The position numbers and the translations under genes were made by a program. Positions 396-51,100 of a DNA stretch of 64,000 bases are shown here, one piece after another. Origin of the DNA: Eledone cirrhosa (taxonomy: Eukaryota); contig OZ024740.1 in assembly GCA_964016885.1 (NCBI GenBank), forward strand, positions 374,046,001-374,110,000. The letters are read 5' to 3'. The notes beneath the pieces were generated by a model. It was not told the origin of the DNA. It worked only from the letters and a program-made list of their open reading frames with translations, and did no database searches. Position 1 is the first letter of the stretch. Every line of letters begins with the position of its first letter.

Positions 396-1027
396 ATAAA
401 CTGAAAAAATGCAACGAAATTTCATTTCTCACTCTTAGTACGGCTTAATTCGGTATGTTATTTTACAAACACACCGAGCATTATGATAAATGTCCGGTGA
501 ATCCATACGTACATATATATATGTGTGCATGTATGTATATATATATATATATATATATATACATACTACTTTACGTCTGTATACATATATGTATGTACGT
601 ATACATACTTATATTTAAGTAACAGCCGTACTAAGAGTGATAAATGACATTTCGTTTCATTTTTTCCGTTTATCGTTTTCGGTGCACCCGGCCGATTAAC
701 TCACTCGATATGCAAATTAGGCTGCTCAGCCGTTAATATGCATAAGTAAATATATACTTTCAGACATTCAATCATCTGGCAGGAAGGTATGCGTTGCTGA
801 CGATAGCTAATAAGCTTGAAACTAGTACAGCGTTCCTATGTCAGTGTTGAACAAATGAGCAACGATGGTTGCTAGACACTGTACGGCTGAATTCGGGATG
901 TTTGTTTACAAACACACCGAGCATTATAATAAATGTTCGGTGAATCCATATATGTGTGCATGTATGTATATATATATAAATACTACTGTACGTCTGTATA
1001 CATATATGTATGTACCTATGCATACTT
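396..1027 (+). mobile_element. Family A: non-autonomous Penelope-like/retrozyme element, partial tandem with an inverted left end
   Basis: Direct repeats at 438-610 and 881-1027. 396-445 is the reverse complement of 624-673. It contains an HHR and has (TA)n on both sides. Confidence 0.75.
791..833 (+). ncRNA. Minimal type I hammerhead ribozyme
   Basis: gcgttg-CTGACGA-T AGCT aata AGCT T-GAAA-CTAG-TA-cagcgt. The core is intact, stem I has 6 bp including G-U pairs, stem III is palindromic and the cleavage triplet is GUA. Confidence 0.8.
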
Positions 1028-1759
1028 ATATATATATATATATATATATATATATATATATATATATATATATATATATATATATATATATATATATATA
1101 TATATATATATATATATGTATATATATATATATATATGTACATATGTATATATAGGGTATATGTGTGCAAGTAACTGTGCTTGTAACTGTATCTGTGCTT
1201 AAGTATCCATATATTCATGTATGCATACATATGTGTATCCCTTTATCTGCAATATGTTAATGGGACTCAAGGCATGATGAATTTTAGTGTGAATTAAATT
1301 AGAATAAAACATCATCAATATATGGCGTTTCCTCACACAGACGTGTTTAATTATGCACATAATGATTTATTGCATAATTATCACTGTACACCTCCTCCCA
1401 GTGGAATGGTTCACAGCATCATATATGACAAGAGATGCAGAAATCGATAAATATGAGGAACTACACTGGAGGACAACAGAAACCGCACAAGCTCAAAATA
1501 TTGATCACATCTTGGGCAACTGAAGTATAGATATATCAAACTGAATTCTGATATATATATATATATATATATATATATATATATATATATATATATATAT
1601 ATATATATATAGATTTTGAGTTTATGTTGGTTGTATACCAACACCTCAGTATGCAGGCTGGAGCACTCGACGAAGTGCGCAGGTTGGTTTGGTTACTCCG
1701 GAGTAGTGTAAAATAAAGTTAAATAAAAGTCAAATGATTAAAATTTAGCTTCGTTTATT

Positions 1760-1814
1760 ACTGCTATATATATTTCAGTGACAGCCATCTTTGGCTGTGA
1801 CCTCTTCAGGCAGT
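1760..1814 (-). ncRNA. Type I hammerhead ribozyme (family B, left arm)
   Basis: Reverse complement of 2050-2104. Confidence 0.75.
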
Positions 1815-48004: not shown

Positions 48005-48126
48005 ACTACTACTACTACTACTACTACTACTACTACTACTACTACTACTACTACTACTGCTGCTGCTACTACTACTACTACTACTACTACTACTACTACT
48101 ACTACTACTACTACTACTACTACTAC
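48005..48126. repeat. (TAC)n/(TGC)n trinucleotide repeat
   Basis: Seen directly. Similar tracts: 37911-38002, 51909-51996 (GAA), 53935-54045 (CAT), 54586-54752 (TAG/CAG/CAA/GAA), 58418-58458. Confidence 0.95.
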
Positions 48127-51100
48127 GGATGTGTTGATGGCGTCATTTGTTATGTCATTGTTGTTCATAGTATTTTCCTTACTGCTGCTGCGGTGTCTGT
48201 TTGATTGTGCAGTGTGTATACGTGTGTGTTGTTTTTACTTCGGAAGGTTATACTTCTTTATACGCTGTTATTGTTCTTGCTTGTAATGGTGCCTCCTGAC
48301 GCCTGATCTTGATATTGTTATTGTTACCTCGCCCCAGATCAAGCATTATCGAAATTCATTCCTATGCGTTTTCCCATTATTCATTTTAGATGGATTTGAA
48401 AGAGATTTTGGCTGCAGCTTCTAGCATATAGAGCAACCACATGGAGGCTACAGTGGTTATAGGGTGTGGTTGGGGATGGTACGTGTTGTAGGCTCCATTA
48501 TTTGATAGAGATTCAGGTTTATGCTTTGTGGTGTCTATCGAAAAGATGTTTTTGATGAAGATGTTTTGTTAACTTGTTCTTTCATTCGTTCGTTCGTTTG
48601 TTCGTTCATTCTGTTGTACGTTCGTTCTTACATTTTCACTTGTTCATTTCGTTTTCACTTATTTGCCTCTTCGATAGTTCGTGACGCAACGAGCTTCTTG
48701 TGAGTTTTATTCGCCAGCATGCAACGTGAATAAAGCAGTTGTATTTAAACTTTTATTAGCCGAGGAGCTACAGTGAAACAAGTGTCTAGAGTTTCATGCC
48801 ACATGCACATAAGTTTGAGGAGTAGAGTGCATCGGCCTGAACAGCTCGGCACTTGAGTCAAAGAAGATGCTGTCTATATGTTTATCTATCACTCTCTCTC
48901 GCTCTCTCTCTCTCTCTCTCTCTCTTTTTCCCTCTCTCCCTATATATATATATAAATAACGAAGGAGTTGTGGTAAGGAACCAGATGGACCATAACGCAC
49001 CAGAGTACTCAATATTTAGGGTAGAAGAGTGGGTAATAGGAAAATGTATGACCCCGCGGGCACAGCTCAAGCCGTTTCGACGGCTATTTCTGGACTAAAT
49101 TAGAATTGTAAAAATTCTAATTTAGTCCATAAATAGCCGTCGAAACGGCTTCAGCTCTGCCGTCGGGGTCATACATTTTCATATATATATATAAAGGCGC
49201 GATCGACTTTCGTCAAATCCGACCGGGGAAACAGTGTTTACATCGGCTTTCACAACTGCTAATACTATCTATCGGTCGTAACACCTGGTAGAAGGAGCAA
49301 CGTGAAATAAAGTGTCTTGCTCAAAGAAATAACGCATATATATATATATATATATATATATATAGAGAGAGAGAGAGAGAGAGAAAGAGAGAGAGAGAGA
49401 GAGAGAGAGAGAGAGAGAGATAAAGAGAGAGAGAGAGAGAGAGAGAGAGAGAGAGAGAGAGAGAGAGAGAGAGAGAGAGAGAGAGAGAGAGAGAGAGAGA
49501 TATGCCTATGTGAAAGCATGTATTAATGTATACAGACACACGCAAACACACACACACACACACACACGCACACGCACACACATAAGCGCTTTCGACATGA
49601 AAACGCCCATGTTGTTCACACTACCCGAAACCCATTGGCGCTCCGTTCAGGATTCTATATGTTTCTATACCCACTCAACATCTCCTCAGGTATCGAGTAC
49701 TCACATGATTAGTGGTCTCCTCGTTCTCAGCACCACGGACTCTCTCTCTCTCTCTCTCTCTCGCTCTCTCCCTCTCTCTCTCTCCCTCTCTCTCTCTCTC
49801 TCTCTTTCTCTCTCTCTCTCTCTCTCTCTGTATATATATATATATATATATATATATATATATATATATATATATATACATATATATATAATTTAATAAT
49901 TTATAAATTTCCGGTTATATATATATATATATATATATAACCGGAAATTTATAAATTATTAAATTTATAAATTATTAAATTTATAATTTTAATTTATAAT
50001 AAATTGGAGTGAAGGTAACTGGTGCGTGTGATTCTGATGGTAACATGGCCCTCCCAAAGCATAACAATATCGGTTTCAACACACATTTTCAGATAAAGAA
50101 TCTTGCTAAACAAATTCTAAAACGAAATATATATATATATATATAGGAACGAGTAGGACCCCGACGGCTTAGCTCAAGCCGTTTCGACGGCTAATTCTGG
50201 ACCAGAATTAGCCGTCGAAACGGCTTGAGCGCAGCCGTCGGGGTCCTACTCGTTCCTATTACCCACTCTACTACCCTAAATATTAAGTACTTTGGTGCGT
50301 TATGGTCCACCTGGTTCCTCTCCACATTTCCTCCGTTATATATATATAAATATATACATATGCATGTGGTGTGTGTATGTGCGCATGTGTGTAGGTGTCT
50401 TAGGGTGTTCGTATAAATATATATATATATATATATATGTGTGTGTGTGTGTGTGTGCGCGCGTGCGTTTGTGTGTGTGTGTGTATGTATGGAAATATAT
50501 GTCTCTTTTCGTCGGATGAACAGGGGTTTTTTACCTAAAAGTTTCCCCTCCGAGACAGTAAGACGAGCAGTCATATATACATTAAAGTCTTCTCTCTGCA
50601 CGTCACAGTTGTAGTCAAATAGAAAGTTAGAGGCCGATAGGCTTGGCATGAGTAACGGTGCCACTCATTGCAAGAGGGGTGAACTGGAGCAAGGTGAAAT
50701 AAAGTGTCTTGCTGAAGGCCAAAATGCACCACCCGTTCCGGGCATCCAACGTGCAACCCCTTGATTGGGAATTAAACACTGCAAGCAATAGGCCAACAAC
50801 GTCAGACACGTATACATACGCACACGTAAAGACATGCACACACGTACAGACACATATATATATATATATATATGAAAAACAAGGGGAAGAAGAATACTGC
50901 ATGGTTGCACATGGATTACATATTATAAAATTAGTCCCTCATCAGTGATTTTGCCAACCATCATTGGTATTTCATCGCATTAAAAATCAGATACCTCAGG
51001 TTGGTGCGAGCAATAACTAAAATAAGCTATTGGGATAAGTGAAACGCGTAAAGCGAGTGAGACAAGTAAACAACAGAAGGAAAAGCAAACCGAAGGTTGG

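What the first reader, a model, noticed from the sequence alone, without database searches (positions are those of the whole stretch)
396..50337. A shared architecture across ~9 unrelated families: (TA)n-targeted, hammerhead-bearing asymmetric fold-back mini-elements
Seen: families A, B, C, D, E, F, G, H and I share no obvious sequence but have one design, (TA)n - inverted arm - turn or jump - sense arm - (TA)n. One arm stops at a fixed short terminus and the other runs about 60-170 nt further. Where an HHR is present it points outward from the centre and is often followed by AATAAA. Established: Penelope-like elements (PLEs) carry minimal type I HHRs in their pseudo-LTRs, form inverted or partial-tandem ends, and some clades favour microsatellites. 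Inference: these are products of one PLE-driven integration mechanism that uses two defined priming ends at a TA target, operating here at roughly one event per 3 kb. Standard annotation would miss them or call them MITEs. I cannot tell whether this has been described in this lineage.
Basis: partly seen in the sequence, partly recalled or inferred. Interest (0 to 1): 0.9.

Follow-up and report, generated by a model that had tools for sequence, protein, structure and literature searches.

The report
Penelope stubs ending at transcription start
These mirror-image repeats inside TA microsatellites are cut-short insertions of a known class of jumping genes (Penelope-like); each joins one long-start and one short-start arm, and in several families the arms stop at what is likely the element's own transcription start, which would show how these elements copy themselves.

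Summary
The fold-backs are real, but they are not a new class of mini-element. They are 5'-truncated, head-to-head insertions of endonuclease-bearing Penelope-like retrotransposons (PLEs) at (TA)n. In 8 families, longer copies lie directly downstream of PLE endonuclease ORFs; family C has intact 808-codon frames. A, B and C carry the Hydra-clade motifs. The inverted copy, one-sided tail, hammerhead and TA targeting are all published, and this scan has noted the same stubs before, here and in other genomes. Only about half the families carry a hammerhead.

Three results go further. (1) Pairs join one long-start and one short-start arm: 80 of 81 unselected pairs, 12 families. (2) Tails run about 35-170 nt, mostly longer than the published 30-40. 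(3) In A, B, E and G most arms stop at one inner site. In A, E and G that site has a TATA box near -31 and CCAAT near -85 (background 0.2%), so it is likely the transcription start. C, F and H show no such stop.

Best model (0.65): a sense RNA is primed twice from the two cut target ends, and the minis are run-off ('strong-stop') cDNAs. No RNA data were available to confirm the start site.

The parts
395..1026 (.). Family P: 443-nt tandem unit without ORF (retrozyme-like). Inverted long-start stub 395-445, then sense short-start arm 438-1026 spanning 1.3 units; type I hammerhead core at 797 (+); octamer ATGCAAAT near 710
   Evidence: tandem units also in L100, L093, L247, L286
1612..2153 (.). 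Family B (Hydra-type PLE): long arm 1612-1929 (sense on -), short arm 1933-2153 (sense on +); both end at the inner stop site; hammerheads at 2050-2104 (+) and 1814-1760 (-)
   Evidence: linked to an endonuclease ORF and an ORF start in longer copies
2189..2298 (.). Family F: 15-nt short-start stub plus long arm 2204-2298
   Evidence: sequence
6871..8476 (.). Family C (young autonomous Hydra-type PLE): long arm 6871-7311 (sense on -), short arm 7311-8476 (sense on +)
7309..7590 (+). C-terminal 94 codons of the family C GIY-YIG endonuclease, inside the short arm
   Evidence: intact 808-codon frames at 98% identity elsewhere in the genome
10740..11124 (.). Family F head-to-head pair (short arm left, long arm right)
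   Evidence: F linked to an endonuclease ORF in 3 loci
14031..14243 (+). Lone arm ending at (TA)n with a canonical hammerhead core at 14165 (family Y)
14310..14546 (.). Family A cluster: truncated stub 14310-14367 and pair 14388-14431 (short) / 14429-14546 (long)
18903..19091 (.). Family A pair; both arms end near the inner stop site; no hammerhead
20166..20386 (+). Family B lone short arm starting at the inner stop site; hammerhead 20280-20334
20399..20601 (.). Family A pair
22017..22380 (.). Family X pair (short left, long right, tail about 90 nt); one other locus in my sample
22397..22835 (.). Family D pair with hammerhead cores at 22591 (-) and 22733 (+)
22886..23075 (.). Family A pair
23131..23449 (.). 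Family E (Neptune-like endonuclease): long arm 23207-23449 ending at the inner stop site, partner arm cut short; hammerhead with a changed core at 23248-23286
26282..26643 (+). Family D lone long arm reading through its inner stop site; hammerhead 26442-26507
26673..26881 (-). Family I lone long arm ending at its inner stop site; a longer copy (L339) carries a U3-A8 variant hammerhead core
28443..28603 (.). Family G pair; minimal hammerhead starts a few nt after the inner stop site
28698..28812 (.). Family A (third subfamily) pair
45481..45609 (-). Family G lone long arm
48959..49179 (.). Family A pair
49891..50126 (.). Family H long arm with an AT-rich fold-back at its inner end
   Evidence: H linked to a GIY-YIG ORF in 7 loci at a constant spacing
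50146..50336 (.). Family A pair (short left, long right)

Best explanation
These are truncated head-to-head insertions of Penelope-like retrotransposons at (TA)n, likely made when both cut ends of the target prime reverse transcription on a sense RNA, one at the element's long start site and one at its short start site. The two cDNAs are then likely joined at their 3' ends, often through a few shared bases. The element unit reads: promoter - likely transcription start - [hammerhead] - short start - tail - long start - (about 54 nt in B and C) - ORF - 3' UTR - promoter. The start sites therefore occur near the 5' end of the transcript as well as in the downstream repeat. Priming in the downstream repeat gives ordinary, randomly 5'-truncated to full-length copies. 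Priming in the 5' repeat would run off the RNA's 5' end after 60-320 nt and give the stereotyped minis, a 'strong-stop' product. Shown: PLE identity, TA target, two fixed outer ends, long+short pairing, inner pile-ups and promoter motifs upstream of them. Inferred: twin priming, that the inner site is the transcription start, and run-off synthesis.
For: PLE identity. Pairing: long+short in 80 of 81 classified pairs from families not used as the query (12 families; 4 further pairs had an unclassifiable end), and in 89 of 90 in query families. Neither arm contains the other in 37 of 115 long+short pairs of A, B, C and E, and copy L081 has a 247-nt long arm opposite a 4.7-kb short arm, so one arm is not simply a copy of the other. 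Joints show 1-15 nt overlap in 81 of 169 pairs, blunt ends in 23 and filler in 65. The RNA reads TA(T) right at the start sites, able to pair with a (TA)n primer. Inner stop, counted as arms ending within +/-12 nt of it among arms that reach it: A 23 of 27 (random DNA) and 41 of 47 (tail-only search), E 17 of 20. For B, 1373 exact copies reach the site but only 534 continue 7 nt into the master sequence, and 18 of the first 30 copies by position stop within 5 nt. In G, 25 of 33 arms end in one 17-nt window. Promoter motifs in read-through copies: TATA at -29 to -33 in A (3 of 4 copies), E (1 of 2), G (3 of 3) and I (1 of 1), and CCAAT at -80 to -92 in all four families, against 0.2% of 15,813 random positions with both. 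Published: two internal RT start sites define the tail and the enzyme cuts and extends both strands (PMC11167929); Penelope transcription starts inside the pseudo-LTR (PMC2377424).
Against: No RNA evidence for the start site. C (1 of 33 arms ending at its candidate site), F and H show no pile-up, so the stop is not universal. B, D, K and C lack a TATA box at -31, and B's stop lies in an 8-nt palindrome that could by itself favour joints there. The +1 positions were picked by eye from the pile-ups before the motifs were scored, and family I rests on about 4 arms. The extra C expected from copying a cap was not enriched: 11 of 41 unexplained next bases. Asymmetric deletions at hairpin centres after insertion could also make non-nested arms. 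In vitro, PAc primed without homology to the target, unlike the TA match seen here.
Confidence: 0.65

Rival explanations
1. One cDNA folds back and copies itself (self-priming), and the endonuclease then trims the second arm at the short site. The inner pile-ups are RT stalls or palindromes, not the RNA's 5' end.
For: Self-priming was proposed for Adineta Penelope (PMC3846280) and endonuclease resolution for the tail (PMC8557442). In 78 of 115 pairs the short arm is nested in the long one. B's stop site is palindromic and many B joints are perfect palindromes.
Against: 37 of 115 pairs are non-nested (13 of 20 in young family C). B arms not joined to a mirror partner also stop 1-3 nt from the same base. 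The A, E and G stops are not palindromes and have TATA and CCAAT at promoter spacing on the sense strand.
Confidence: 0.17
2. The minis are non-autonomous elements in their own right: short RNAs made from the stub's promoter, or from a few master stubs, and mobilised in trans, as a SINE is by a LINE.
For: Minis far outnumber long copies in A, E and G. Family P is an ORF-less 443-nt tandem hammerhead unit with the same two-terminus, head-to-head signature, so non-autonomous templates do use this pathway.
Against: A stub that ends at the start site lacks the upstream TATA and CCAAT. Long arms end just before the conserved TAGCTCC motif, and in PAc the RNA beyond the start sites is required (PMC11167929). 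Junctions vary from locus to locus.
Confidence: 0.12
3. They are MITEs of a DDE transposon, or assembly or hairpin-read artefacts.
For: Inverted ends at TA superficially resemble Tc1/mariner-derived MITEs (recalled).
Against: The arms are asymmetric and vary in inner length. They continue into PLE 3' UTRs and ORFs, and the two arms of older copies differ by up to about 20%. Arm-to-arm joints occur in contigs of run X1.
Confidence: 0.02

Closest known systems
Hydra clade of C-terminal EN+ Penelope-like elements (Craig et al. 2021, PMC8557442; section 11 read, other passages, three rows of supplementary File S1 including Hydra-1_Obim)
   Same: Single RT-EN ORF with RWK, DKT, CxCX5C, CxxC and CxH motifs and no CCHH; (TA)n targeting; partial tandems; inverted 5'-truncated copy; one-sided tail.
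   Different: Tails of 77-168 nt against the 30-40 bp given for PLEs; units about 3.5 kb (C); no hammerhead found in A or C; thousands of young copies. The long+short rule and the fixed inner stop are not in the passages I read.
Poseidon PAc of Anolis carolinensis (Frangieh et al. 2024, PMC11167929; main text parts 1-2 of 4 read)
   Same: Two internal RT start sites bracket the tail; both target strands are cut and extended; AT-rich target; hammerhead cleavage is not needed.
   Different: PAc's start sites lie inside the ORF and need no target homology. Here the long site lies about 54 nt before the ATG (B, C) at a TA(T) step. The paper does not explain head-to-head pairs or run-off products.
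Adineta vaga Pen2/Pen3 inverted pseudo-LTRs (Arkhipova et al. 2013, PMC3846280; passages)
   Same: Head-to-head pseudo-LTRs with a tail on one; TATA plus Inr-like motifs in the pseudo-LTR; microhomology joints.
   Different: It proposes self-priming on an antisense template and leaves sense versus antisense open. The data here favour a sense template and two primers.
Non-LTR retrozymes (Li et al. 2026, bioRxiv 10.64898/2026.07.22.740005, part 1 of 5 read; min-HHR paper PMC4209133, passages)
   Same: Family P: tandem 443-nt unit with one type I hammerhead and no ORF. PMC4209133 already notes opposite-strand hammerhead pairs 100-700 bp apart from truncated PLEs.
   Different: P inserts with the PLE signature (TA target, two termini about 60 nt apart, head-to-head), which is insertion-level evidence for mobilisation by a PLE.
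Minus-strand strong-stop DNA of LTR retroelements (recalled, not looked up)
   Same: A short cDNA from a priming site near the RNA's 5' end to the 5' end.
   Different: Here the primer would be target DNA, there are two start sites, and the product is integrated.

Membership tests
EN+ Penelope-like elements | Single ORF with RT and C-terminal GIY-YIG endonuclease linked to the terminal repeat | tested here: met
   C: intact 808-codon frames, Atlas neighbours with HTH_animal, GIY-YIG and RVT_1 at 0.96-0.98. Endonuclease ORF upstream of the arms in A, B, E, F, H, K, N and U (K rests on one locus). Pfam scored only the V-type fragment (PF01541) and none of the 3 Hydra-type proteins. No ORF link found for D, G, I, J, M or X.
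EN+ Penelope-like elements | Partial-tandem pseudo-LTRs and an adjacent inverted 5'-truncated copy | tested here: met
   L081-L084, L086-L088; B tandem junction in L302
EN+ Penelope-like elements | One-sided tail of 30-40 bp | tested here: inconclusive
   A one-sided tail is present in all families with two termini, but only E (about 35) and an H variant (40) are in range; the others are 48-168 nt
EN+ Penelope-like elements | Type I or minimal hammerhead in the pseudo-LTR | tested here: inconclusive
   Present in B, D, E, G, K, M, P, Y and as a variant in I; not found in A, C, F, H, J, N, U. Cleavage activity not testable.
Hydra clade (families A, B, C) | RWK motif, and DKG changed to DKT | tested here: met
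   C: RRVRWKAY and KADKTSN; B: RRMRWKAF and HADKTNN; the A N-terminus was not examined
Hydra clade (families A, B, C) | CxCX5C linker, CxxC and CxH motifs, no CCHH | tested here: met
   A, B and C endonuclease translations all show CNC-X5-C, CxxC and CRH or CKH
Hydra clade (families A, B, C) | Placement in the RT phylogeny with reference Hydra elements | not tested
Neptune/Nematis-type PLE (families E, H, V) | Zn-finger linker before a GIY-YIG domain with CCHH | tested here: inconclusive
   E fragments show CxxxRCxxC and a YCIKCxxC..YVG..H motif, but in broken frames; clade assignment is recalled, not computed
Non-LTR retrozyme (family P) | Tandem units of a few hundred nt, each with a type I hammerhead, no ORF | tested here: inconclusive
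   Tandem junctions in about 9 loci and a hammerhead, but two complete consecutive hammerhead units were not shown; circular RNA not testable
MITE / DDE transposon | Symmetric short TIRs, fixed length and a TSD shared with a transposase-coding element | tested here: not met
   Asymmetric arms of variable inner length that continue into PLE ORFs; a TSD cannot be read inside (TA)n

The most novel reading that the evidence does not exclude
Penelope-like elements make a retrovirus-like strong-stop cDNA. A dimeric enzyme primes both target strands at two staggered sites near the 5' end of one sense RNA and runs off at the transcription start. It must then jump to the repeat at the RNA's 3' end to copy the gene, which would regenerate the pseudo-LTR. 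The tens of thousands of fold-backs would be failed jumps. Single loci consistent with this: L060 (cDNA ends at the start site, resumes 95 nt past the long site), L087 (upstream repeat begins 4 nt after the candidate start) and L023/L313 (tail copied three times in tandem).
Probability: 0.2. Interest if true: 0.8.

Novelty: new variant of a known kind. Interest (0 to 1): 0.5.

Why it matters
How PLEs get their inverted ends, one-sided tail and pseudo-LTRs is a stated open question (PMC8557442; PMC3846280 leaves sense versus antisense template open; PMC2377424 sees no mechanism for pseudo-LTR regeneration). This genome gives a large natural sample: a strict long+short rule and a promoter-bounded stop predict exactly which RNA and which two sites to use in an in vitro test, with an intact young ORF (family C) available. 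Practically, rough scaling gives about 600,000 stubs and about 85,000 hairpins, with arms covering about 4% of random DNA. Such stubs are easy to mislabel as MITEs and would be ready dsRNA substrates if transcribed (inference; PMC5625713 links such hairpins to hyper-editing).

Tried and rejected
11 first suggested that almost every family B copy ends in 'AATGAC'. That form has only 21 exact copies and was over-sampled by the search's rare-word seeding, so those loci were left out of the inner-end counts; they remain in the 'ascertained' pairing counts. The B stop was re-established by pattern counts. A tail-only search for B returned nothing, not even itself; uninformative. Cap signature (extra C): not supported. 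Hammerhead cleavage as the source of the inner end: rejected, because in B and E the stop lies about 70-170 nt upstream of the cleavage site and few arms end at the cleavage site. A splice junction as the source of the inner end: rejected, since no shared sequence follows the stop. AATAAA as a poly(A) signal: no A-tails at the termini. Automatic reference choice failed for F, I, M, V and A3 (references ran into unrelated repeats); those rows were not used beyond reading F's ends below 700. No RNA holder listed. Run X5 showed no contigs on family B; no inference drawn. Literature searches: 'strong-stop' had 0 occurrences in the PLE papers listed, and 'twin priming' with Penelope appeared only in two papers whose titles are on other subjects (listing only). 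The library lacks most subscription papers, and I did not see Craig's File S2 or supplementary figures, which may cover octopod Hydra pseudo-LTRs.
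Full report
Observation. The window is extremely rich in (TA)n tracts. Masked self-BLAST shows many local inversions whose outer ends abut these tracts. The 200 kb upstream holds 61 events and 17 pairs, and 60 scattered 10-kb pieces hold 123 events and 17 pairs. 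The library comes from the same sample, so these are rough lower bounds. Clustering 1102 sequences that start at a TA tract gave 45 clusters of three or more. Many link in twos, with the short terminus lying at a constant offset inside the long one. Genome searches confirmed the two fixed outer ends for B, A, C and E. A type I hammerhead descriptor gave 6 hits against a simulated mean of 0.2. Hammerheads occur in B, D, E, G, K, M, P and Y, and as a U3-A8 variant in I. None was found in A, C, F, H, J, N or U.

Identity. The fold-back at 6871-8476 contains the last 94 codons of a GIY-YIG-type endonuclease. Searching with it gave 47,123 first-look candidates; the 150 scored were 95-100% identical, several in 808-codon open frames. 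Fetched copies show the standard PLE layout: a partial upstream repeat, the ORF, a downstream repeat and an inverted truncated copy, all in (TA)n. Longer copies of A, B and E run collinearly into endonuclease ORFs, and F, H, K, N and U termini follow such ORFs. For B, three read-through copies share the 1.07-kb 3' UTR and the endonuclease, and L302 shows the long end continuing 54 nt to an ATG homologous to family C's. A, B and C have the Hydra-clade motifs listed by Craig et al.. Family P (395-1026) is different: an ORF-less 443-nt tandem unit with one hammerhead that nonetheless uses two termini about 60 nt apart and forms head-to-head pairs.

What is already known. The inverted truncated copy, the 30-40 bp one-sided tail and (TA)n preference are in PMC8557442 (passages and section 11; three supplement rows). 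Head-to-head pseudo-LTRs with TATA and Inr-like motifs, and the self-priming proposal, are in PMC3846280 (passages). Opposite-strand minimal hammerheads from truncated PLEs are in PMC4209133 (passages). Two internal RT start sites defining the tail, and extension of both target strands, are in PMC11167929 (parts 1-2 of 4). A promoter inside the pseudo-LTR is in PMC2377424 (passages). Earlier notes of this scan reached the same PLE-stub reading in this and other genomes, and proposed twin priming and paired start-site hairpins. These notes are leads, not support. I tested the hairpin claim: an RCTC..GAGY stem follows 7 of 17 start sites examined (6 within the first 14 nt; background 0.7%), mostly in Hydra-type or related families, and not in E, F, H, I or P.

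Pairing rule. Among head-to-head pairs with both outer ends at TA, those from families not used as the query were long+short in 80 of 81 classified cases across 12 families (one short+short; four more had an unclassifiable end). Query families gave 89 of 90. Independent choice of site would give about half. In 37 of 115 long+short pairs of A, B, C and E, the short arm reaches more than 12 nt further in than the long arm, so neither arm contains the other. This favours two cDNAs over self-copying, though later central deletions could mimic it. The RNA reads TA(T) at both start sites, and a TAGCTCC motif follows the long site in A, B, C and one further family.

Inner stop. In DNA not selected for inner ends, arms of A that reach the site end within 12 nt of it in 23 of 27 (random) and 41 of 47 (tail-only search) cases, and arms of E in 17 of 20. 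In G, 25 of 33 arms end in one 17-nt window. For B my first sample was biased by the search (see Tried and rejected), but exact counts show 1373 copies reaching the site and 534 reading 7 nt further, and 18 of 30 position-ordered copies stop within 5 nt. Read-through copies show TATA at -29 to -33 and CCAAT at -80 to -92 in A, E, G and I, a combination seen at 0.2% of random positions. B, D and K have only CCAAT and/or an octamer, and some copies neither. Against this: the young autonomous family C shows scattered ends from 176 to over 1700 nt, with 1 of 33 at its candidate site; F and H show no pile-up; no cap signature was seen; and no RNA run was available. The lack of a stop in C may mean that its templates are mostly long tandem read-through RNAs (inference).

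Mechanism. Inferred: the RT-endonuclease cuts both strands of a (TA)n tract, and each 3' end pairs with a TA(T) step on the sense RNA, one at the short and one at the long start site. The cDNAs grow toward the RNA's 5' end and are joined head-to-head, often through microhomology (overlap in 81 of 169 joints). Start sites in the downstream repeat give long copies; start sites in the 5' repeat give run-off minis. Because the stop has promoter motifs on the sense strand, the template is more likely the sense RNA than the antisense RNA proposed for Adineta. Confidence about 0.95 for PLE origin, 0.7 for twin priming, 0.7 for the stop being the transcription start, and 0.65 for the whole. I did not find the run-off or pairing statements in the searches listed under Tried and rejected, nor the run-off idea in two look-ups of earlier notes (only 8 notes shown).

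Verdict. A real, abundant, known kind of retrotransposon debris, with longer tails than described and two regularities that make the PLE insertion mechanism testable. Interest 0.5; new variant of a known kind. The host was not identified; the DNA recalls octopods, which is a recollection and was not tested.

Noticed in passing
window 32214-37635 (+); decayed relatives at about 42250-42980 and 52206-52753: A broken L1/Tx1-like non-LTR retrotransposon by recalled motifs: ORF1-like frames, AP-endonuclease and RT fragments. This stretch is nearly free of TA tracts and PLE stubs.
   Followed up: no
window 19155-19845 and 51251-51601: Inverted duplications of non-terminal sequence on both sides of a (TA)n tract: 252 nt including a SINE-like repeat and an F tail, and 41 nt at 98% identity. 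A different process from the PLE pairs, perhaps repair at TA hairpins.
   Followed up: no
window 2848-3040 and about 16 further copies (e.g. 19158, 20733, 29808, 30011, 30490, 43904, 53404, 56464, 60201): A very abundant ~190-nt SINE-like repeat, usually in (ATT)n or AT-rich sites; a second SINE-like family at 14567-14790, 21759 and 49194.
   Followed up: no
L023/L313 (G000:C2:7215380-7215910): Family B tail (long start to short start, 104 nt) copied three times in tandem, as if the RT stopped at the short site and restarted at the long one; reminiscent of telomerase repeat addition. One case found.
   Followed up: partly
L060 (G000:C4:280179214-280182353): Family A arm ends at the inner stop, then continues with sequence from 95 nt past the long start: a likely template jump from the RNA's 5' end. 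One case.
   Followed up: partly
window family A arms, e.g. 48959-49179: Family A has no hammerhead but keeps a repeated GCCGTCG motif and a stable stem-loop between the inner stop and the short site across three subfamilies; function unknown.
   Followed up: no
window 20040-20165: Fragment of an older relative of family C (76% identity) joined head-to-tail to the lone B arm at 20166.
   Followed up: no
window 26282-26400 and about 710; L180, L041: Octamer ATGCAAAT 37-52 nt upstream of the inner stop in families D and P; earlier notes read such cassettes as snRNA-type promoters.
   Followed up: partly
L035-L038 (G000:C2:201.81-201.98 Mb): Four near-identical long family A copies spaced about 55 kb apart, probably a segmental tandem duplication and so not independent insertions.
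   Followed up: no
window 9769-9968: 200-nt assembly gap (N).
   Followed up: no
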